Of a DNA stretch of 32,000 nt, positions 1,282-26,013 are shown in pieces. A program made the position numbers and the translations under genes. The stretch is taken from the NCBI GenBank assembly GCA_965227835.1, contig OZ245768.1:1080001-1112000 (forward strand), written 5' to 3'. This DNA comes from Candidatus Saccharimonadota bacterium. Lineage in GTDB: Bacteria > Patescibacteriota > Gracilibacteria > BD1-5 > UBA6164. The notes beneath the pieces are model-generated. The model worked only from the letters and a program-made list of their open reading frames with translations, was not told where the DNA came from and searched no databases. How positions within the stretch are numbered: the first letter of the stretch is position 1; each line of letters begins with the position of its first letter.

Positions 1282-1419
1282 AAATCTGTTGTATAACTTA
1301 TTGAGAAATATATCACCATTTTATGAGAAATTATAATATTTTTATAAAAATAACAACTATCACTATGCCTAATATTTAATATTTTTTAATTATATAATTC
1401 CTATCTTGTATATACCCGT

Positions 1420-1580
1420 GTTCTATCCTTTCTGTTCTGTCCTTTCTCCTCTAAAAAGGAGAGGGTTAGGGTTTACTCAGAGAGGGTTAGAGTAAGTTTT
1501 TGCTAAGGTGAGATTAAGTTGTAGAGGGTTAAGGTGAGTTATAGAGAGTTAGAGTAAAATTTTATTTGATAAGGTGAGGT
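1420..1580 (+). repeat. GC-rich structured intergenic repeat, copy 1 (degenerate)
   Basis: Architecture: a CT-rich arm (ttctatcctttctgttctgtcc), a central hairpin (ctcct-ctaaaa-aggag, extended to gaggg) at 1441-1465, then a G-rich arm of GGGTTAGG/GGTGAGG-type units. The same layout occurs at 7943, 8731, 13771 (inverted) and 17331. Confidence 0.7.
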
Positions 1581-7501: not shown

Positions 7502-7774
7502 CTAAACTACAGAAACATATTTTTCTTTATAAATTCTACCATCAAATCTAGTCCTGTTTTTTTCAGTAAAAACTACATTTCATTCTTTAGTAGCAAATAA
7601 GGTAAAATCATGTCCTTGTCATACACCATCTCAAGGCCAAAATTTATTACCTTTTTGTCTAACAATAATATTTCATGCTATAGCTTTTTGTCCTCAAAAT
7701 AGTTTAACACCAAGTCTTTTGGCTTTACTATCTCTACCATTATTGGTGGATCATTGGGCTTTTTTGTGAGCCAT
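7502..7774 (-). CDS. rpmA: 50S ribosomal protein L27
   Basis: [61 protein letters not shown] matches L27 nearly position for position against E. coli ([28 protein letters not shown]...). TGA sits on the conserved Gly residues. Confidence 0.9.
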
Positions 7775-7942
7775 ATTTGTTTAAAATTATTAAAATAAAA
7801 TTTATATGCTTTTCTAGTAGTTTAATCAATTATCATTTTTTGATCTCCTATAAATATAAGACTTTTCTATACAACACGGGATTTTAGTCCTTTTTATTCT
7901 TTATCTCAATGTTTAAGTATTAAGGTTTAATAATTACCCTAG

Positions 7943-8145
7943 TTCTCTATTTTTTCTGTTCTATCACCTCTGTTCTGTTCCCTCTCCTTAAAGGAGAGGG
8001 TTAGGGTGAGGTTAATTTGACTTAGGGTGAGGTCTGCTCAAGTTAGCATAAGGTCTGTTCAAGAAAGGCTAGGGAATAGATTAAGATTTTTCAAAGAGTC
8101 AAAATCAAAAAGTATTCAATATTAGTAAGGGGCCAAGACACCTTA
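7943..8145 (+). repeat. GC-rich structured intergenic repeat, copy 2 (between rpsG and rpmA)
   Basis: CT arm (ttctctattttttctgttctatcacctctgttctgtt). Perfect hairpin CCCTCTCC (7980-7987) / GGAGAGGG (7993-8000). G-rich arm (ttagggtgaggttaatttgacttagggtgaggtctgctcaag). A terminal hairpin TAAGGGGCCAAGACACCTTA lies at 8126-8145. Confidence 0.8.
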
Positions 8146-8730: not shown

Positions 8731-8910
8731 TCCTATTCTATCATCCCTTTGATCTATCACTTCTATTCTATCCTCTATTATTTCTGTTCTATTCCCTCTC
8801 CTCCAAGGAGAGGGCTAGGGTGAGGTGGAGAGAGGGTTAGATTAGGGTTAATTTTAGGTTAGGATGAGGTCTTGCCTAAGCTAGGGTTAAGTTTGCTCTA
8901 GCAAAGTCTT
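8731..8910 (+). repeat. GC-rich structured intergenic repeat, copy 3 (between rpsL and rpsG)
   Basis: CT arm (tcctattctatcatccc...ttctattctatcctctattatttctgttctatt). Hairpin CCCTCTCC (8794-8801) / GGAGAGGG (8807-8814). G-rich arm (ctagggtgaggtggagagagggttagattagggtta...ggatgaggtcttgcctaag). Confidence 0.8.
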
Positions 8911-9000: not shown

Positions 9001-9417
9001 CTACTTAGGTTTTTTAGAGCCATATTTAGATCTACCTTGCTTTCTGTTAGCTACACCTTCACAATCCAAAACTCATCTAACTATATGATATCTAACTCAA
9101 GGTAAATCTTTTACCCTACCTCATTTAATAGCTACAACAGAGTGTTCTTGTAAATTATGACCTTCTCAGCCAATATAAGCATTAACTTCATATCAATTAG
9201 TAAGCCTAACTCTTGCAACTTTTCTAAGAGCAGAATTAGGTTTTTTAGGTGTTGCTGTATAAACCTTTACACAAACTCCTCTTTTTTGAGGACACCCTCA
9301 ATCTATAGCAACTTGTCTTTCTTTCAAAGAATTTTTAGTTACTTGCAAAGCTGGAGATTTACTCTTTTTGTGGGGAGTCTTTCTTTTTCTTTTTAGTAAT
9401 TGGTTAATAGTTGGCAT
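9001..9417 (-). CDS. rpsL: 30S ribosomal protein S12
   Basis: [60 protein letters not shown] is near-identical to E. coli S12. Six in-frame TGA all fall on Gly (for example 9166-9168, 9097-9099, 9073-9075). Confidence 0.95.
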
Positions 9418-9464
9418 AATTTAGTTTAGTAAATATTTAAGTTTCAAAATATATTAGAATTATA

Positions 9465-13770: not shown

Positions 13771-13912
13771 TAGCTCTCTTCGAGCAAGACCTCACTCTAA
13801 AACTCAACCTAACCCTCTCCAACTTCACCTCACCCTAGCCCTCTCTATCTATACCTCACCCCCAACCCCTCTCCTTAGAGGAGATGGGAGTAAAACAGAA
13901 GGAATAGAATAT
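13771..13912 (-). repeat. GC-rich structured intergenic repeat, copy 4 (inverted orientation)
   Basis: The reverse complement reads ttctattccttctgttttactcc-CATCTCC-tctaa-GGAGAGGG-gttgggggtgaggtatagatagagagggctagggtgaggtgaagttggagagggttaggttgag...gagtgaggtcttgctcgaag. The architecture matches the other copies. The plus-strand hairpin arms are at 13867-13874 and 13880-13888, with a 1-nt bulge. Confidence 0.75.
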
Positions 13913-13987
13913 AAATTGTTATTACATAGTAGAGAATAATAAAATAAATTTTACTCTATAAATTATTTTTTAATCTATTGTTTCCCT

Positions 13988-14012
13988 TCAACAGAGGGCT
14001 TTAGCCCTTTGC
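13988..14012 (+). repeat. 25-nt hairpin motif TCAACAGAGGGCTTTAGCCCTTTGC, copy i
   Basis: Stem AGAGGGC/GCCCTTT with a TTTA loop. Near-identical copies lie at 22669-22693 and 25989-26013. Degenerate copies lie at about 14196-14230 and 14244-14275. Confidence 0.65.
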
Positions 14013-14158
14013 CCATTAACAATATTTGCATTCAGCCCTTTACCCATTAACAATATTTGTATTCAATCCTTTGCTCAATTAACAATATTTGCATTTAGCC
14101 CTCTGCTAATTAACAATATTTGCATTCAGCCCTTTGCATAGTAAGATTTTTGCAAAAT
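14003..14158. repeat. Tandem array, about 4.5 copies of a 31-bp unit (AGCCCTTTGCCCATTAACAATATTTGCATTC)
   Basis: Units start at 14003, 14034, 14065 (32 bp), 14097 and 14128 (partial). The core TTAACAATATTTGCATT is conserved in four units. The array sits in the divergent intergenic region between infA and the pilin gene. Confidence 0.8.
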
Positions 14159-14167
14159 AAAACTTAA

Positions 14168-14195
14168 TTGCAAATTATCCTAAATTTAGTATATT
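14168..14195 (+). promoter_or_regulatory. Candidate sigma-70-type promoter for the pilin-fibrinogen gene
   Basis: TTGCAA (14168-14173), a 16-nt spacer, then TATATT (14190-14195), about 135 nt upstream of ATG 14329. Chance matches are easy in AT-rich DNA. Confidence 0.3.
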
Positions 14196-14328
14196 CCTTT
14201 AGGCAGATGGCTTTAACCATTTGTCCCATATTACATTATATCCTTTCAACAGAAAGCTTCATCCCTTTGCCTAGTAGAAATTTTGACAAAAAACTATGAT
14301 AAACTTTTAACTCTTAACTCCCCCTCAA

Positions 14329-15606
14329 ATGAAAAACAAACTAACCCTCCAACCAAAAAAAGCATTCACCTTAGTAGAGCTAATAGTAGTAGTAACAATA
14401 CTAGCAATAATCTGAACAATATGATTTGTAAGCTATACAGACTATCTATCTTGAGTAAGAGATACAAATAGAACAGTACAACTAGAAAGTATATGAGATT
14501 GATTAAAACTATCACTAACAAAATGAAGACTTCCAATACCCGATGACTACATAGAAGTTAAAACTAGTTGAGATACTATAGCATATCAAGGATATGCATG
14601 AGAAGAAGTACTAAAAAAAATTAAATATGACAAAGAAGGTAAAGATCCACTAGATAATACATATTTTTCATACTATGCTACAGATAATAGAAAGAACTTT
14701 CAATTAATGGCATTACTAGAAGAAACAAATGAAACTGTAAGTTTATATAATAGAAGAGAAGTATTATCTGAGGATATAGATTATTCAGACAGACAAGTTA
14801 AGGTAAGTTGAAAGAAGCTATGAATATTAACTGGGGGTTGAGATAATTTAAATGTTCCAGTACAAGAAATATGAGAGATAAAAGATAATTGAGAATTAGA
14901 TATAGCTACTACACCAGAAGAATATATATCCCATATAGATGATAATGATAAGATTAGTTGAAATTGAAGTGAATTAATTAAATCAATATATAATGCTAGT
15001 TGTAAGAGGATTTTAGAATCTAGTTTAGATAATTGAGATTGAATTTATAAGATAAATCCTGCTGGAACAGAAGAATTTGAGGTTTATTGTGATATGGAAA
15101 CTGATGGGGGTGGGTGGACTTTAATAGAGAGTTTTTCTTTAGAAAACAAAGATATTTATACATTTGGAGCTTTCTATGAAGATTTACCAAGAAACGAAAA
15201 TACTCCAAAAAATTTTGAAGACTTTAGATTGTCTTTAAGTAAAATGGAAGACTTAGTAGATATTTCAACTGAAGTTAGAGCTGGATGTAATATGGAAATA
15301 AATCCATCAAAAGACTATGTATTTTTTGATTTGTCTGAATTAAATATTTTAACATTTCAAGGAATTGGAGAGTATAAAAAAACAAAAAAATTAAATGTAA
15401 GAGGAAATTTTTATGAAAATGAAGATCTAAAATGGTGGCAAGGAAATAATATTGGTAATAATGATCATCTACATATAGATTCAAATATTGATAATATTCC
15501 TAACTCAATTTACTCAGAAGATAACTTCGGCCATTATAGGTATATAAACCAAGAGTTTTCTTGTACTTCTTCTCAAAGTTCAACAACTAATTGGTATTTA
15601 AGATAA
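14329..15606 (+). CDS. Type IV pilin-like protein with a C-terminal fibrinogen-like YCDxxxxGGGW domain (425 aa)
   Basis: ATG at 14329 is the first start after an in-frame TAA at 14308. I checked all triplets to 15094 and found no TAA/TAG. The gene joins the track ORF 15094-15606 in frame. The N-terminus, MKNKLTLQPKKA/FTLVELIVVVTILAII, is a prepilin cleavage/methylation motif with Glu at +5. Residues encoded at about 15000-15130, [43 protein letters not shown], match the opening subdomain of fibrinogen-related domains. Confidence 0.8.
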
Positions 15607-15634
15607 AAATTTACAAATCATAATCCAAAAACAT

Positions 15635-16759
15635 ATGAACAAAACAAACGAATCTTCTAGATTAATATTATTTAATCTAAGCATACTTACAATAATAGCA
15701 GTAGCATATCTGATGTATATATGAAGCTCTCTTATACTACCTTTTGTAATAGCACTTCTAGTAAGCTTTTGAATAATATCAGTATCTGGATTTTTCAGTA
15801 ATATGGGTATGAATAAATTTTTTTCATACCTGTTTAGTGCATTTTGTTTTTTTATATTTTTCTTCCTCTTATGATGGATAATAAACAACAACATAGAAGA
15901 AATAACAAAACCAAAAAACATAGAATTTTACCAAAACAGATTTGAAGAAATATTCTCTCCGATGCTAGAATACACAACCAAACTTAATATAAACCAAGAA
16001 GAACTAAGACAAAAATTTTTAAAAAGCATTGATTTTTCAAATGTATTTTCTAGTGTAACCCTAGTTATAACCTCCATACTATCAAGTGCCTGACTAATAA
16101 TAATATACATATTGTTTATACTCCTAGAATATAGATTCTTTCAAGAAAAAATCTCACTTATATCTCCCGATGTAACAAAAAGAAAAAAGATATCTTCTGT
16201 AATAGAAAAAATAAAAAACGATGTAAAAACATATTTTTTGATAAAAAGTCTCACATCATTTTTTACAGGACTTTTGACATATATAGTGCTTTCTATATTT
16301 TCTGTAGATTTTGCTATGTTTTGGTCTTTTACAATATTTATACTAAACTTTATCCCTACAATTTGATCAATAATATGAGTATCAATAGTTTCTGTTTTTG
16401 TAGTAATACAAATATGATTCACTGCAGTGCTTTTCTTGGTTATTCTAAGTTTGATATGAATACAAACACTTATATGAAATATAATAGAACCAAAACTTAT
16501 GTGAAATAAACTAAATCTAAGCCCTCTTGTCATAATACTATCTCTTTGATTATGGTGAGCTATATGGTGAGTAGTTTGAATGCTTCTATCAGTACCAATA
16601 ATGGTAATAATAAACATTATCCTATCAAATTTTGAATCAACTAAACCCATATCTATAATGCTAAGTGAGAAATGAGTACTAGGAGATGAAAAAGAAATAA
16701 ATATAGCAAACACTAAAAAAGAACTCTATAAATTAATTAAAGACAATTTAAAGAATTAA
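15635..16759 (+). CDS. AI-2E family transporter (PerM/UPF0118-type permease), 374 aa
   Basis: It has about 8 TM segments and family motifs: FILNFIPTIGSIIGV and [38 protein letters not shown]. It contains the track fragment 16112-16366 in frame. Confidence 0.8.
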
Positions 16760-16872
16760 AAATCTAAAACTCTATTTTTTCTAACTCTGCTCTAATATAA
16801 ACATTGATGTTAGATTCAAACTAAAAAATATTACAATATATTTGTAGTCTAAAAATGATAAAAACACAAAAC

Positions 16873-17088
16873 CTATTTATAAGATTTATTGATGCAAAGA
16901 AGTTTAGAAAGGAATGCAAATGGCTGAAGACATCTGTTTAATAAAATTTTGGATAAATATAAAAAAGGAATAATGCTCTTTGTAGTGAATATGGTAGAAG
17001 CATAAAATACAAGATTTAAAATTTTCAAATTTATGAGAAAAATAAAAAACTCTTTTCTTGAACTAATACTTTTTATAATATCTTTCAT
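16873..17088 (-). CDS. Doubtful small hydrophobic ORF (71 aa from ATG; 115 aa if TTG 17220 is used)
   Basis: This is the only open frame in the 16760-17330 gap. I recognised no homology and saw no RBS. Its composition is typical of random AT-rich ORFs. Confidence 0.2.
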   Translation of the reverse strand: MKDIIKSISSRKEFFIFLINLKILNLVFYASTIFTTKSIIPFLYLSKILLNRCLQPFAFLSKLLCINKSYK

Positions 17089-17330
17089 ACTCACTTTTTT
17101 TAGATCAATAAAGTCTTTTTTAGGGCTAAAAAAAGTTAAATGAAATTTATTTTTTGATAGTCTGGATTTTACCTTTAAAATATGGCCCAAGTATTTTTGG
17201 TCCAAACCAAGCCTATACAAACTATTTTCTTTTTTCCCAGATTTACTTAAATTTGTACTAAAAAAGTAAAATATTTAGAGCTTTTTATACAAGAATTTAA
17301 AAGTAAGGATATGATGGAGAAATGTTAATA

Positions 17331-17577
17331 TCTGTTCTATCCCTCTCTACTCTGTTCTATTTCCCTCTCCTCCAAAGGAGAGGGTTAGGGTGAGGGCTTT
17401 ACGGGTTAGGATTAGGTTTTGCTGTAGAGGGTTAGGATTAGGTTTTGCTGGAGAGGGGCTCTCGGGTGAGGTCTCGGGTTAGATTGAAATCTTGAGCAAG
17501 TAAAAATCTGGGTTTAAGAATAAAATCTGGAATAAATTTATTCTTGTAAAAATATGCAAGGGGTCAAGACCCCTTGT
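17331..17577 (+). repeat. GC-rich structured intergenic repeat, copy 5 (most complete)
   Basis: The CT arm has tctgttctat twice. The hairpin is CCCTCTCC (17363-17370) / GGAGAGGG (17377-17384). The G-rich arm, gggttagggtgagggctttacgggttaggattaggttttgctg, contains an internal direct repeat of about 25 bp. It continues as gggtgaggtctcgggttag. A terminal perfect hairpin CAAGGGG-TCAAGA-CCCCTTG lies at 17558-17577. Confidence 0.85.
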
Positions 17578-20552: not shown

Positions 20553-20584
20553 ACACAAAATTAATTTACTAACTTTTTAAAATT

Positions 20585-22480
20585 ATGTCTAAAGATATAA
20601 ATAAAATAAATAATTGATGAGATGCTCCCAAAGAAGACAAAGTATTGTTTGAGTTAATTAAAACTAAACAAACTATTTGAAATATACTAGAAGGAGATAA
20701 TGGAAGCTTATTGTCATTAGAGAATTTGAAAATAAATAAAGAAACTTGAGAAATTATAGGTTGAATTGCAAAAAGCTTGCAACAGGAAAAATTTCCATTT
20801 TGGAAACAAGAAGATAAATATGTACTAATAAAAGCAAAGTGAAAATATAACTATATTGATATTAAAAGTATTGATAGGGATAAAAAAACATGAGAAATAC
20901 TAATTTTTTCTATAAAAAATAACACCCCTATTGAAAGAAATTATTTTTATAAAGAAGCAGGTAAATATAAGAAGCTTAAAATAGAATGAATTGATAGCAT
21001 AGAAAAAGCATGTAGTATAAAATTAAATGAACAAACAGGAGAAATAGTAGGATGACGCTTTGAAGAATCTATTAATAGCTCTTGAGTTTTCATCAAAAAA
21101 GATAATAAATTTGTTAAATTAGAAATAGAATGAGTTGGTAATATTAGGAATATACATAGTTTAAAAATAGATGAAGAAACTTGAGAAATAATAGATTGAG
21201 TAGTAATATGTAAAAACCTCAAAACATTAGCATTTCAAAAACAATGAAATAAGTTTATTAAATTAGAGATAGAATGAATTAACCATACCATGGATATAGA
21301 AAGTTTAAAAATAGATGAAAAAACATGAGAAATATTAAGATGAATAGCCCTAATAAATGGATTTGACACTTGAAACTTTATGCCTTTTTACAGAAAAAAT
21401 GGTAAACTGACCAAATTAGAAATAGAAGGAATTGATGAAATTTTAGGTATGCATGATTTAAAAGTAGATGATGAAACCTGAGAGGTACTAGCTTGAATTG
21501 CAGTAGATAGAAATCAAGGACAAACTGCATTTGAAAAACAATGAAATAAATATGTAAAAATAAAAATAGAAGTAGAATGAGTTGGTGAGATAAAATGTAA
21601 GTATGATCTAGCTACAAATGACGAAAATTGAGAGTTATTAGCTTGAACTGGTCTAGATAAAAAATGATACCAAATACTATTTTATAAAAAATGAGATAAA
21701 TATGAAAAATTAAAAATAGAATGAATTAATAATGTAGAAGGAATAGAAACTATAGAAATGGACGAAGCAAAAAGAGAATTAATAAGTTGAGTATTAATAA
21801 TAGAAAATTGCAATCTTGTAGCTTTTTTAAAAGATAATGATAAATATATTAAGTTAGAGATAGAATGAATTAATGAAATTAAAAATATATATAATATAAC
21901 TTCAAATAAAGAAACAGGAGAGATATTTAGCTGAATAGCTGAATATGGAGAACTTAAAACTATACCTTTTTTCAAAAAAGATAATAAATTTATTAGGTTA
22001 GAAGTAGAAGGAATTGATGAAATACAGGATACAAATAACTTAAAAATAGATGATGAAACTTGAGAGGTTTTAACCTGAATTGCAATATATAAAGACTATT
22101 ATGAAATACCATTTTTTAAAGAATGAAGTAAATATGTTAAATTGAAGATAAAATGAGTTGATGAAATAATAGATACACCTATCAATACATTAAAAATAAA
22201 CAATAAAACTTGAGAAATATTATTTTGATTTGCGGTGTGTGAAAACTGATATGAAATACCATTTTATAAAAACTGAAATGAATATGTTAAATTGGAAGTA
22301 AAATGAGTTGACGAAATAGTAAATACGAAAAATTTAGAAATAGACTATGAAGCTTGAGAGTTATTAACTTGAGTATTAACAGATGGAATTTGAAACGAAA
22401 TATGATTTTATAAAAGATGAGGTGAATATGTAGTTAAAAAAGACAAAGAATACGATTTTGTAGAAGAGGATGTTTGGTAG
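20585..22480 (+). CDS. Tandem-repeat protein, about 12 repeats of about 48 aa (631 aa), function unknown
   Basis: ATG at 20585 to TAG at 22478-22480, in frame (1896 nt), open only with TGA as a sense codon. The repeat consensus is about K[YF]VKLEIEG[IV]DEIxxxxxLKIDxETGE[IV]LxGIAxxxxxxxxxF[FY]KKxN. There is no signal peptide. Confidence 0.75.
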
Positions 22481-22596: not shown

Positions 22597-22668
22597 ATAG
22601 TAAACTAACTTGCAAGTTAGACTATTTTAAAAGGCAATTTTAATTGAAAGGGCAATTTTTACTTTTTG

Positions 22669-22693
22669 TCAACAGAGGGCTTTAGCCCTTTGC
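22669..22693 (+). repeat. 25-nt hairpin motif, copy iv (TCAACAGAGGGCTTTAGCCCTTTGC)
   Basis: It is identical to copy i at 13988-14012 and lies downstream of the separate terminator candidate. Confidence 0.65.
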
Positions 22694-25960: not shown

Positions 25961-25988
25961 AACTGAAACTATAACATCGTTTTTTCTT

Positions 25989-26013
25989 TCAACAGAGAGC
26001 TTTAGCTCTTTGT
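25989..26013 (+). repeat. 25-nt hairpin motif, copy v (TCAACAGAGAGCTTTAGCTCTTTGT)
   Basis: It is the same motif as 13988 and 22669 but with a compensatory double change in the stem (G-C to A-T). Confidence 0.6.

What the first reader, a model, noticed from the sequence alone, without database searches (positions are those of the whole stretch)
17331..17577. Five-copy family of GC-rich, strand-asymmetric structured repeats in an otherwise very AT-rich genome
Copies lie at 1420-1580, 7943-8145, 8731-8910, 13771-13912 (inverted) and 17331-17577. They share a 150-250 bp architecture:
- A pyrimidine arm made of tctgttctat/ttctattc units.
- A conserved hairpin CCCTCTCC-loop-GGAGAGGG. It is perfect in copies 2, 3 and 5, has a 1-nt bulge in copy 4, and is degenerate in copy 1.
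- A G-rich arm of GGGTTAGG / GGTGAGG / GGATTAGG units, ending near a gaggtcttgctcaag-like box.
- In copies 2 and 5, a second hairpin (CAAGGGG-TCAAGA-CCCCTTG).

The two arms are not Watson-Crick complements. Hand-folding copy 5 nevertheless gives further short helices between the CT arm and the G arm that depend on G-U pairs. Such pairs form only in RNA made from the G-rich strand, which points to an RNA-level, orientation-specific structure.

The hairpin is not followed by a U run, so it is not a simple terminator. No transposase is nearby. Copies 1-3 are antisense to the flanking genes. Copies 4 and 5 are sense and upstream of infA and of the minor-pilin operon.

I do not recognise this as a described ncRNA or REP/MITE class.
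Basis: seen in the sequence. Interest (0 to 1): 0.7.

Follow-up and report, generated by a model that had tools for sequence, protein, structure and literature searches.

The report
BoxC-type triplex repeats in Gracilibacteria
The five GC-rich repeats are real, but their core is the long-known yet unexplained bacterial "BoxC / triplex motif" DNA repeat, here expanded into unstable arrays in a tiny AT-rich candidate-phylum genome, and related loci hint that this repeat class travels with a small DUF559 nuclease gene.

Summary
In detail: there are five intergenic copies, far more than chance would give. The "undescribed RNA" reading is not supported.

**What it is.** Each copy is built on a ~45-nt core: GTTCTRT box, CCCTCTCC, loop, GGAGAGGG, YTA, GGGTGAGG. 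This is the BoxC / PIT / TM_ECO motif, also described as a "G4-hairpin switch". It is known from E. coli and occurs across many phyla.

**Source and distribution.** The window comes from a Gracilibacteria genome (TGA is sense, 26.6% GC).
- The arms are tandem duplications of the core's own flanks.
- They differ by whole units from a sister strain at about 95% nucleotide identity.
- More distant relatives have short, empty spacers at the same sites.

**RNA reading.** There is no Rfam match, no covariation and no folding energy beyond shuffled sequence. The third block mirrors the second, which is the triplex-type rule (66 cases against 7). Copy 4 lies upstream of the conserved infA promoter.

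**Best reading.** These are non-coding, structure-prone dispersed DNA repeats that expand by slippage and mark indel and rearrangement sites.

**New lead.** In other bacteria, including other Gracilibacteria, Vibrio and E. coli ycjD, DUF559 (Vsr-fold nuclease) genes are flanked by these motifs. This suggests a relationship like that between REP repeats and their RAYT transposase. The window itself has no DUF559 gene.

The parts
1419..1580 (+). Copy 1, degenerate. CT arm 1419-1447 (period 14). Y block CCTTTCTCC 1441-1449. Loop 1450-1457. R block GGAGAGGG 1458-1465. TTA. Decayed H block GGGTTTAC 1469-1476. Then degenerate R-TTA-H modules to about 1580.
   Evidence: The hairpin is not stable (z -0.12). 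The whole 470-nt spacer is replaced by a 39-nt spacer in sister strain L241.
7943..8075 (+). Copy 2. CT units TCTGTTCTAT at 7955 and TCTGTTCTGT at 7969. Y 7980-7987. Loop TTAAA. R 7993-8000. TTA. H GGGTGAGG 8004-8011. Then TTA-GGGTGAGG-TCTGCTCAAG modules. It lies between the S7 stop and the L27 start, with the G strand antisense to the operon.
   Evidence: z -3.54. L241 has 28 extra nt in the CT arm and 50 extra nt in the G arm. Relatives have 32-85-nt spacers at this site.
8127..8144 (.). Degenerate 'second hairpin' AAGGGGCCAAGACACCTT, immediately 3' of the S7 stop on the minus strand.
   Evidence: z -0.13. Identical in L241.
8731..8910 (+). Copy 3. CT arm 8753-8792 (period 21). Y 8794-8801. 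Loop TCCAA. R 8807-8814. CTA. H 8818-8825. Then R/H-like modules and GAGGTCTTGCCTAAG at 8866-8880. It is inserted between the S12 stop and the conserved S7 leader.
   Evidence: In L241 the core is a different variant (CCCCTCTCC...GGAGAGGGG-CT-GGGGGTGAGG) and the G arm is longer. Relatives have 88-103-nt spacers that keep only the S7 leader.
13771..13912 (-). Copy 4, G strand on the minus strand. Y CCCATCTCC 13888-13880. Loop 13879-13875. R GGAGAGGGG 13874-13866. TT. H GGGGGTGAGG 13863-13854. Three R-YTA-H modules (period 26) end in GAGGTCTTGCTCGAA at 13793-13779. It lies upstream of the infA promoter.
   Evidence: (I5, I7). The conserved TTGCAT...TATAAT promoter lies between this copy and infA. 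In L241 the hairpin is disrupted by indels while the flanks are identical.
17331..17500 (+). Copy 5, the assigned finding. CT units at 17331 and 17351 (period 20). Y 17363-17370. Loop TCCAAA. R 17377-17384. TTA. H GGGTGAGGG 17388-17396. Two 26-nt GGGTTAGGATTAGGTTTTGCTG units at 17403-17457. Further G blocks to about 17500. It holds the only canonical G3 quadruplex motif in the window (17382-17405).
   Evidence: The L241 ortholog has the variant core CCCTCTTCT...AGGAGAGGG-TTA-GGATGAGG. Homology with L241 ends at the left edge of this copy.
17557..17576 (.). Second hairpin CAAGGGGTCAAGACCCCTTG, 45 nt upstream of the pilin-like gene. It scores as terminator-like only on the minus strand.
   Evidence: (z -3.95). 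Conserved in L241. Whether it belongs to the repeat is uncertain: it accompanies only 2 of the 5 copies.

Best explanation
The five loci are copies of a non-coding, dispersed DNA repeat. Its ~45-nt core is the BoxC / PIT / TM_ECO motif: a GTTCTRT box, a pyrimidine block CCCTCTCC, a short loop, the complementary purine block GGAGAGGG, YTA, and a second purine block GGGTGAGG that is the mirror image of the first.

**Shown**
- The core is the same as the E. coli and pan-bacterial motif.
- The hairpin is stable.
- The mirror rule holds.
- The flanking arms are tandem duplications of the core's own 5' box and of its purine modules.
- The elements are hypervariable between close strains and absent from orthologous spacers of more distant relatives.
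- They sit next to homology and rearrangement breakpoints.

**Inferred mechanism**
- The element acts as DNA, not as an RNA gene.
- When the DNA is single-stranded (during replication, repair or transcription) the core folds into a hairpin, or into an intrastrand purine-motif triplex. This stalls or misaligns polymerases.
- The flanking units are then gained and lost by slippage, and the site becomes a hot spot for indels and rearrangement.
- Where a copy lies inside an operon (S12-S7-L27) it is simply tolerated and read through.

**More speculative.** The family is seeded or mobilised in trans by a DUF559 (YcjD-like, Vsr-fold) nuclease. In other bacteria the genes for this nuclease are flanked by cognate versions of the motif. 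The window copies would then be solo, non-autonomous derivatives.
For: **Identity with the known motif**
They span Pseudomonas, Enterobacter, Azospirillum, Dehalococcoidia, cyanobacteria, Planctomycetes and others, and nearly all continue with GAGGG.
- The literature gives the pattern and properties of the motif (PMC4666352; PMC5100583).
- The window core matches 5409 of 5426 E. coli genomes in unannotated intergenic DNA.

**Mirror rule**
- Among 309 parsed instances, 95 have an asymmetric R block. The H block is mirror-type in 66, direct-type in 7 and symmetric in 22.
- Window copies 2, 3 and 4 obey the rule.

**Instability, from comparison with L241 at about 95% identity**
- Copy 1 is absent from L241.
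- Copies 2, 3 and 5 differ by whole-unit indels.
- The copy 4 stem is broken in L241.
- Homology ends at the edge of copy 5.
- L241 has an extra copy at an inverted junction.

**Lineage-specific gain**
- Relatives at about 80% S7 identity have short spacers and no elements.
- The exception is a minimal 45-nt element after the S7 stop in L242. Its sister L243, 95.6% identical, has a plain hairpin there.

**Tandem arms.**

**Against an RNA gene.**

**DUF559 link**
- There are 10 DUF559 genes in 0.81 Mb of GTTCTRT-motif loci and none in 0.91 Mb of the other motif loci. Eight lie within 50 nt of a motif, with the ORF often ending ...PSP* inside it.
- Six of six Gracilibacteria DUF559 loci (five distinct proteins), picked by protein homology alone, have an inverted motif pair upstream. 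In Gracilibacteria DNA outside the window lineage, 10 of 11 strict motif hits lie within 300 nt of a DUF559 gene.
- E. coli ycjD ends in a motif-like hairpin and has BoxC 170 nt downstream.
- In Vibrio campbellii a DUF559 gene is flanked by the motif and by tandem arrays of motif modules.
- In a spread sample of E. coli genomes, BoxC-like places have a median of 19 where ycjD is present and 5 where it is absent.
Against: - Triplex or hairpin formation in vivo is not shown here. It was not detected in E. coli by DMS footprinting (PMC4666352).
- Only 32 kb of this genome was available, so copy number, strand bias relative to replication and transcription, and the presence of a DUF559 gene are all unknown.
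- The window has no DUF559 gene or remnant.
- The genome-set loci held no DUF559 gene at all. Most motif copies everywhere are therefore solo.
- E. coli genomes without ycjD still carry up to 16 copies. The ycjD correlation is also confounded by phylogroup (PMC12817139).
- No clean target-site duplication or filled/empty junction was recovered.
- The outer G-U helix is pairable in all 14 copies tested, so a role as RNA cannot be strictly excluded.
Confidence: 0.62

Rival explanations
1. The element encodes a structured RNA, either a cis-regulatory leader or a small RNA. It would be made from the G-rich strand, with the core hairpin plus G-U-dependent helices between the CT arm and the G arm.
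For: - The outer helix (GTTCT box against TAGGGTGAG) is pairable in 97% of cells over 14 copies, against 58-70% in slid controls.
- It needs G-U pairs, so it is strand-specific.
- Copy 5 lies sense and upstream of a pilin-like operon.
Against: - No compensatory change, and covariation equals the shuffled value.
- Whole-copy folding is no better than shuffles (z -0.20).
- No Rfam match.
- Three of the five copies are antisense to their operon.
- Copy 4 lies upstream of the infA promoter.
- The arms vary by whole units, and the copy 4 stem is broken in a strain about 95% identical.
- Relatives lack the element in front of the same genes.
- Stem mismatches do not favour G-U on the G strand.
Confidence: 0.06
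2. The element works at the RNA level but in either orientation, like REP elements. The core hairpin, once transcribed within operons, would protect upstream mRNA from 3' exonucleases or attenuate read-through. It would therefore be kept at gene ends.
For: - Copies 2 and 3 lie inside the S12-S7-L27 transcription unit.
- In L242 a minimal element sits directly after the S7 stop. Its close relative L243 has an ordinary hairpin with the same loop at that place.
- In L242 the stem wobble is compatible with the mRNA strand.
- Many DUF559 ORFs end in the hairpin.
Against: - PIT/BoxC elements showed no terminator or promoter activity in E. coli (PMC4666352).
- The conserved third block and the 5' box are not explained by a simple hairpin function.
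- The tandem arms add nothing to such a role.
- Most relatives do without the element.
Confidence: 0.12
3. It is a classical MITE. That would make it a deletion derivative of an insertion sequence, moved by a DDE or Y1 (RAYT-like) transposase encoded elsewhere in the genome.
For: - Multi-copy, intergenic, found in either orientation, with presence/absence polymorphism.
- The cross-phylum spread suggests horizontal movement.
Against: - The two arms are not inverted repeats of each other.
- No target-site duplication is visible at the filled and empty sites.
- No transposase is present in the window or among recurrent neighbours of 240 motif loci. The largest neighbour cluster is ABC ATPases.
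- The E. coli literature found no link to IS elements, phages or plasmids. Only 36 of 68417 E. coli places are on plasmids.
Confidence: 0.05
4. It is a regulatory DNA element. It would act either as a G-quadruplex/hairpin switch or as a protein-binding site that tunes transcription of adjacent genes (infA and the pilin operons).
For: - Kaplan et al. showed hairpin and G4 signatures for the E. coli motif in vitro (PMC5100583).
- Copy 5 has a canonical G4 motif.
- Copies 4 and 5 lie in promoter-proximal regions.
Against: - Only 1 of the 5 copies has four G3 tracts.
- Neighbouring genes are functionally unrelated, both here and in E. coli.
- Relatives express the same genes without the element.
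- The copies are hypervariable.
Confidence: 0.08

Closest known systems
BoxC / PIT (potential intrastrand triplex) element / TM_ECO motif of E. coli and other Proteobacteria (Bachellier 1990s; Hoyne et al. 2000; Holder et al. 2015, PMC4666352). The same motif is the HPG1/HPG2 'G-quadruplex-hairpin-duplex switch' of Kaplan et al. 2016 (PMC5100583).
   Same: - The same block order and almost the same sequence: CCCTCTCC(C)-loop-(G)GGAGAGGG-TTA/CTA-GGGTGAGG(G).
- The third block mirrors the second.
- Strictly intergenic, on either strand, multi-copy.
- No coding capacity and no linked transposase.
- Local hypervariability between strains.
   Different: - The host is a 26.6% GC, TGA-recoded Gracilibacteria genome. 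Holder's TM_ECO census covered Proteobacteria only, although GC-rich triplex motifs were also noted in cyanobacteria.
- The blocks are 8 rather than 9 nt, because the terminal C-G pair is replaced by T-A.
- A GTTCTRT box lies upstream.
- Both flanks are expanded into tandem arrays, giving elements of 140-250 bp instead of about 35 bp.
- The type A + type B inverted pairs typical of E. coli are not seen.
REP/REPIN elements with their RAYT (Y1 transposase) genes
   Same: - Short GC-rich hairpin repeats dispersed in intergenic DNA.
- Many solo copies per genome.
- If the DUF559 lead holds, a single-copy nuclease gene flanked by its own cognate repeats, with the repeat variant changing along with the gene lineage.
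   Different: - No Y1/HUH transposase is involved. The candidate partner has a PD-(D/E)XK Vsr-fold (PF04480; PDB 3HRL).
- The repeat carries a third, mirror block that REPs lack.
- Mobilisation has not been demonstrated.
BOX elements of Streptococcus pneumoniae (boxA-boxB(n)-boxC). This comparison is from memory.
   Same: Modular intergenic repeats with a variable number of internal units and predicted stem-loops.
   Different: There is no sequence similarity. BOX modules are not pyrimidine/purine mirror blocks. This was not tested here.

Membership tests
BoxC / PIT / TM_ECO intrastrand-triplex motif | Three consecutive blocks on one strand: pyrimidine block, loop of 3-6 nt, complementary purine block, loop of about 3 nt, second purine block. 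Published pattern: CCCTCNCCC-N3-6-GGGNGAGGG-N3-GGGNGAGGG, with one mismatch allowed. | tested here: met
   - Copies 2, 3 and 5 read CCCTCTCC-N5-6-GGAGAGGG-YTA-GGGTGAGG(G).
- Copy 4 reads CCCATCTCC-N5-GGAGAGGGG-TT-GGGGGTGAGG.
- Copy 1 is degenerate.
- The strict 9-nt regex fails at the terminal position (T-A instead of C-G), so 8 of 9 triads are kept.
- The 51-nt window core aligns to E. coli BoxC sites at 82-89% identity.
BoxC / PIT / TM_ECO intrastrand-triplex motif | The third block is the mirror of the second, not a direct repeat of it. This is what an antiparallel reverse-Hoogsteen strand requires. | tested here: met
   - Across 309 instances, mirror-type outnumbers direct-type 66 to 7.
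- Window R/H pairs: GGAGAGGG/GGGTGAGG in copies 2 and 3, and GGAGAGGGG/GGGGGTGAGG in copy 4.
- Variant families keep the rule: GGGGAGG/GGTGGGG, GGAGGGG/GGGGAGG and GGAGGGAG/GAGGGTGG.
BoxC / PIT / TM_ECO intrastrand-triplex motif | Intergenic, on either strand, multi-copy, with no linked IS, phage or plasmid. | tested here: met
   - All five copies are intergenic, four on the plus strand and one on the minus strand.
- No recurrent transposase next to 240 motif loci.
BoxC / PIT / TM_ECO intrastrand-triplex motif | The isolated strand forms a stable triplex, shown by CD or NMR. | not testable with these tools
   Only Watson-Crick folding could be computed. The 8-triad AT-adapted variant has not been measured.
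Canonical G-quadruplex motif (G3+N1-7, four tracts) | Four G3 tracts with loops of at most 7 nt. | tested here: not met
   Only copy 5 qualifies (17382-17405). Copies 1 to 4 do not.
Described structured RNA family (Rfam 15) | A match to a covariance model at or near its gathering score. | tested here: not met
   - Only a tRNA matches in the window.
- With the E-value threshold, the best hits on copy 5 score 10.7-17.6 bits against gathering scores of 37-100.
Conserved structured RNA (any) | Covariation, or thermodynamic stability beyond what composition gives. | tested here: not met
   - None of 15 pairs is compensatory, and the covariation score is 0.136 against 0.140 for shuffles.
- z-scores are -0.20 and -1.58.
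MITE | Terminal inverted repeats and a target-site duplication. | tested here: not met
   - The arms are CT-rich against G-rich and are not complementary.
- No duplication is visible at the filled and empty sites.
REP/REPIN-RAYT | A palindromic REP with a 5' GTAG-type tetranucleotide, and a Y1 RAYT gene flanked by REPs. | tested here: inconclusive
   No RAYT gene is in the window or among the neighbours of the motif loci. The whole genome could not be scanned.
Intrinsic terminator | A GC-rich hairpin followed by a U-run. | tested here: not met
   The scan finds only the 17557-17576 hairpin, on the minus strand. None of the core hairpins qualifies.

The most novel reading that the evidence does not exclude
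BoxC/TM repeats, which have had no known origin or function for about 30 years, are the cognate repeats of DUF559 (YcjD-like, Vsr-fold PD-(D/E)XK) nuclease genes.

- The gene plus its flanking motifs would form a small mobile or self-maintaining cassette found across bacterial phyla.
- Solo motifs, including the five composite arrays in this Gracilibacteria window, would be non-autonomous derivatives. The nuclease would nick and copy them in trans.
- A concrete mechanistic idea follows. This is inference, and the Vsr specificity is from memory. The folded motif pairs the GTTCT box with YTAGGG through T:G mismatches. That resembles the T:G-in-CTWGG substrate of Vsr, so the nuclease may nick the folded repeat.
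Probability: 0.4. Interest if true: 0.8.

Novelty: new variant of a known kind. Interest (0 to 1): 0.55.

Why it matters
For the window itself, the result turns an apparently novel "structured RNA" into a member of a known, though still unexplained, DNA repeat class. It also extends that class to a recoded, very AT-rich candidate-phylum genome, where a GC-rich 45-mer cannot be a by-product of base composition.

Three points are of wider use:
1. The motif keeps nearly the same sequence from E. coli to Chloroflexota, cyanobacteria and Gracilibacteria. That argues for horizontal spread or for a shared machinery.
2. Across sequence variants, the third block always mirrors the second. This is comparative evidence that the three-block (triplex-type) geometry is the selected or copied feature, rather than the hairpin or the quadruplex.
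3. The physical link to DUF559 genes offers a testable candidate for the missing protein partner of BoxC, and a function for a widespread domain of unknown function.

If the link is confirmed, it would add a second system of the REPIN/RAYT kind. It would also explain why these sites are hot spots of genome rearrangement.

Tried and rejected
- **Rfam.** Searches at gathering and at permissive thresholds found nothing.
- **Whole-copy RNA folding.** Neither strand folds better than shuffles.
- **Covariation on 14 copies.** None found.
- **Wobble-bias test on unselected motif instances.** The sample was small (23), with no bias towards the G strand.
- **First mirror-test regex.** It mis-parsed the blocks and was redone.
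- **Guilt by association.** All-against-all clustering of ORFs of at least 100 aa within 3 kb of the motif in 240 loci found only ABC transporter ATPases and spurious GC-rich frames. No transposase was found. The short DUF559 genes were missed at this step and were found only later.
- **Looking up window proteins by exact sequence.**
  - No record was found for the table-11 fragment.
  - The collection translates TGA as Trp.
- **The source genome's 1.49-Mb contig.** It could not be read, so genome-wide copy number and DUF559 status remain unknown.
- **Profile search for DUF559.** No protein from that contig appeared among the top 120 of 7301 hits.
- **DUF559 remnants near the five window copies.** None found.
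- **Clean insertion boundaries or target-site duplications.** Comparisons of window with L241, L242 with L243, and L215 with L183 did not resolve any.
- **Possible origin of the G-arm linker.** The GCTCGGAGAG-type linker might derive from the DUF559 C-terminal coding sequence. Only about 6 nt outside the motif are shared, so this was judged too weak to claim.
Full report
**1. Source and context**

The window is 26.6% GC. With the standard bacterial code, ORFs of at least 100 aa add up to 27% of the window length. With TGA read as sense, the same measure, summed over all six frames, rises to 112%. A pilin N-terminus reads FTLIEIMI-TGA-ILI, which fits Gly (code 25). The S7 protein is 98% identical to a database protein that sits on a 1.49-Mb contig; the only differences are the three TGA codons, which the database reads as Trp. 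The next relatives are annotated Candidatus Gracilibacteria.

The gene order on the minus strand runs infA, S13, S11, S4, rpoA, L17, L13, S9, S12, S7, L27. Pilin-like genes on the plus strand begin at 14311 and 17620.

**2.

- They are recovered by repeat finding (families D6, D9, D10, D13, I5, I7).
- GGAGAGGGYTAGG gives 11 hits against 0.14 expected.
- An nhmmer profile gives exactly five hits, E 1e-17 to 1e-20.
- The core hairpin is stable as DNA in copies 2 to 5 (-9.1 to -9.9 kcal/mol, z -2.1 to -3.5). It is decayed in copy 1.
- Tandem Repeats Finder shows both arms are internally tandem. The CT arms have periods 14, 21 and 20. The G arms have period 26.
- The "second hairpin" matches a shared pattern in copies 2 and 5 but folds well only in copy 5.

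**3. The core is a known motif**

These covered Pseudomonas, Enterobacter, Azospirillum, Dehalococcoidia, cyanobacteria, Planctomycetes, Elusimicrobiota and others. Nearly all continue ...GAGGG, which the pattern did not require.

A text search for the sequence led to two papers:
- Holder et al. 2015 (PMC4666352) call it TM_ECO, earlier BoxC or PIT.
  - Their pattern is CCCTCNCCC-N3-6-GGGNGAGGG-N3-GGGNGAGGG.
  - They count 3610 copies in 262 proteobacterial genomes and 23 in E. coli K-12.
  - The copies are always intergenic and lie on either strand.
  - The single strand forms a triplex in vitro.
  - No promoter or terminator activity is found, and the loci are more rearranged than controls.
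- Kaplan et al. 2016 (PMC5100583) read the same motif as a G-quadruplex/hairpin/duplex switch.

The 51-nt core of window copy 5 matches 5409 of 5426 complete E. coli genomes, with a median of 14 places, all unannotated. GTTCTRT-N1-3-CCCTCTCC-N3-7-GGAGAGGG again hit the 120-locus limit in metagenomes, with GC from 0.23 to 0.71. E. coli's fepB BoxC has GTTCTG upstream.

**4. What constrains the motif**

I parsed 309 instances into Y, R and H blocks.
- G-run lengths of R correlate with those of H in mirror fashion (r 0.44 and 0.47), not in direct fashion (r -0.11 and -0.30).
- Of 95 instances with an asymmetric R block, H is mirror-type in 66, direct-type in 7 and symmetric in 22.
- Sequence variants keep the rule: CCTCCCC/GGGGAGG/GGTGGGG, CCCCTCC/GGAGGGG/GGGGAGG and CTCCCTCC/GGAGGGAG/GAGGGTGG.

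This is the geometry of an antiparallel purine-motif triplex. According to the literature cited in PMC4666352, that triplex type forms in DNA but not in RNA. Window copies 2, 3 and 4 obey the rule. Only copy 5 has four G3 tracts, so the quadruplex is not the conserved feature in this lineage.

**5. The RNA reading fails the tests available**

- Rfam gives nothing.
- Copy 5 folds no better than shuffles: z -0.20 on the G strand and -1.58 on the C strand.
- RNAalifold on 14 copies (window, sister strain and low-GC metagenome contigs) recovers the core hairpin.
- The outer helix is pairable in 97% of cells. But no pair shows a compensatory change, and the covariation score equals the shuffled value.
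- In 23 unselected instances, stem mismatches are C.A 11, G.A 7 and T.G 5. There is no preference for wobble on the G strand.
- Copy 4 lies upstream of the TTGCAT...TATAAT promoter that is conserved in front of infA in all relatives.

**6. Comparative evidence: unstable and lineage-specific**

L241 is a sister strain at about 95% nucleotide identity.
- Copy 1, together with its 470-nt spacer, is replaced by 39 nt.
- Copy 2 has an extra 28-nt CT duplication and 50 more nt in the G arm.
- Copy 3 carries a different core variant and a longer arm.
- In copy 4 the only differences from the window are indels that break the stem.
- Copy 5 has a mutated Y block, and homology ends exactly at its left edge. 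The window has an AI-2E transporter gene there and L241 has other genes.
- L241 has one more copy, at a junction where the NTP-transferase gene is inverted.

Relatives at about 80% S7 identity have S12-S7 spacers of 88-103 nt that keep only the conserved S7 leader, and S7-L27 spacers of 32-85 nt. They have no elements in 16-20 kb of synteny. The exception is L242, with a minimal 45-nt element directly after the S7 stop. Its sister L243, 95.6% identical, has a plain hairpin with the same loop at that site.

The elements are therefore recent gains that expand and contract by whole units. They are tolerated inside an essential operon.

**7. A lead on the origin of the class**

No transposase recurs near the motif. 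Small DUF559 genes (PF04480, Vsr-like PD-(D/E)XK fold; PDB 3HRL) do recur.

- *Enrichment.* Ten DUF559 genes lie in 0.81 Mb of GTTCTRT-motif loci, against none in 0.91 Mb of motif loci chosen without that box.
- *Adjacency.*
  - Eight of the ten are within 50 nt of a motif.
  - A forward motif typically lies about 40 nt upstream of the gene.
  - A reverse motif overlaps the stop codon, so the protein ends ...APSP* or ...PSPRPSP*.
  - The stop is the TAA of the YTA linker or sits in the hairpin loop.
- *Boundary.* Homology between two such loci ends at the outer GACAGAAC.
- *Reverse test.*
  - I took six Gracilibacteria DUF559 loci (five distinct proteins), chosen by protein homology alone.
  - All six have an inverted pair of motif variants 20-120 nt upstream of the start.
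  - Outside the window lineage, 10 of 11 strict motif hits in Gracilibacteria DNA lie within 300 nt of such a gene.
  - The site after alaS is filled in two genomes and empty in two others.
- *E. coli K-12.* ycjD ends ...RRSPSP* in a motif-like hairpin. A duplicated fragment of its 3' end and BoxC no. 9 follow within 170 nt.
- *Vibrio campbellii.* One DUF559 gene has the forward motif upstream and the reverse motif over its stop. It also has six upstream and two downstream tandem modules, each made of the gene's last 20 nt plus the motif. This architecture resembles the window's arrays.
- *Protein tails.* Many diverse DUF559 proteins end in Pro-rich then Gly-rich tails, as expected from reading into such hairpins.
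- *Correlation in E. coli.* ycjD is present in 3378 of 5426 genomes. In an evenly spread sample, BoxC-like places have a median of 19 with ycjD (n = 37) and 5 without (n = 23), Mann-Whitney p 6.5e-10. This is confounded by phylogroup (PMC12817139).
- *Literature.* I found no paper in the library that links DUF559 or YcjD to BoxC.

**8. Limits**

- The window has no DUF559 gene or remnant.
- The rest of the source genome could not be read.
- In vivo folding, mobilisation and any nuclease activity are all inferred.
- Most motif copies in every genome are solo.

**9. Verdict**

The finding is real. It belongs to a known class, BoxC/TM_ECO, in a new host, and it has an unusual tandem-array architecture. 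The orientation-specific RNA interpretation is not supported. The most interesting outcome is the DUF559 association, which concerns the whole repeat class and needs genome-wide and biochemical tests.

Noticed in passing
whole window: TGA is a sense codon. With table 11, ORFs of at least 100 aa add up to 27% of the window length. With TGA read as sense, the same six-frame sum is 112%. In a pilin N-terminus TGA falls where Gly is expected, which points to code 25 (Gracilibacteria). The protein collection translates these genes with TGA as Trp.
   Followed up: partly
window 14003-14137: A 31-nt tandem repeat (4.3 copies, unit AGCCCTTTGCCAATTAACAATATTTGCATTC) lies between infA and the first pilin-like gene. 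It sits near the minimum of cumulative GC skew. Each unit carries TTGCAT, and the array is conserved in the sister strain L241. It could be iterons, operator sites or stacked promoters.
   Followed up: no
window 13981-14011, 14193-14223, 14239-14269, 22662-22692, 25982-26012; also L241 spacers: This is a second dispersed intergenic motif, TCAACAGAGGGCTTTAGCCCTTTG. It is a short hairpin with compensatory variants (GGGC/GCCC against GAGC/GCTC). In L241 it replaces copy 1 and also occurs in the S12-S7 spacer. It may be a terminator-like or protein-binding element of this lineage.
   Followed up: no
window 14311-15606: A pilin-like protein with an N-terminal methylation motif also has a weak match to the fibrinogen C-terminal globular domain (PF00147, E 3e-07). 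That is an unusual combination for a candidate-phylum bacterium.
   Followed up: no
window 20573-22480: A 635-aa ORF is built from about 48-aa (144-150-nt) tandem repeats. It contains 44 TGA codons.
   Followed up: no
window 15602-17274 vs L241 1865-3428: Gene content differs between two strains about 95% identical. The window has an AI-2E family transporter gene here and L241 has unrelated small genes. The breakpoint is at the left edge of repeat copy 5.
   Followed up: partly
L258 800-2130 (Vibrio campbellii CP173387.1): A DUF559 gene is embedded in tandem arrays of about 125-nt modules, six upstream and two downstream. Each module is the last 20 nt of the gene plus a reverse triplex-type motif. 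A forward motif copy lies on each side. The protein search also returned many near-identical DUF559 clusters from Vibrio campbellii and V. owensii assemblies, which could mean several copies per genome or simply many sequenced strains.
   Followed up: partly
L249 (E. coli K-12 1351150-1351410): Downstream of ycjD there is a partial duplicate of the ycjD 3' coding end (GAGACGGTGCTGGAGAATATTCGGCA...). It lies between the gene's own terminal hairpin and BoxC no. 9. This looks like the remnant of a second cassette or a slippage product.
   Followed up: no
L255-L257 (GC 0.59 metagenome contigs): Here the DUF559 gene lies immediately downstream of an N6/N4 DNA methyltransferase gene and upstream of a ResIII helicase gene. 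This is a restriction-modification-like context, different from the solitary motif-flanked cassettes.
   Followed up: no
window 9001-9420 to 7502-7780: S12, S7 and L27 are appended to the infA-rpoA-L17-L13-S9 cluster. This order is conserved in the related Gracilibacteria loci L241-L248. No fusA or tuf gene follows S7 in any of them.
   Followed up: no
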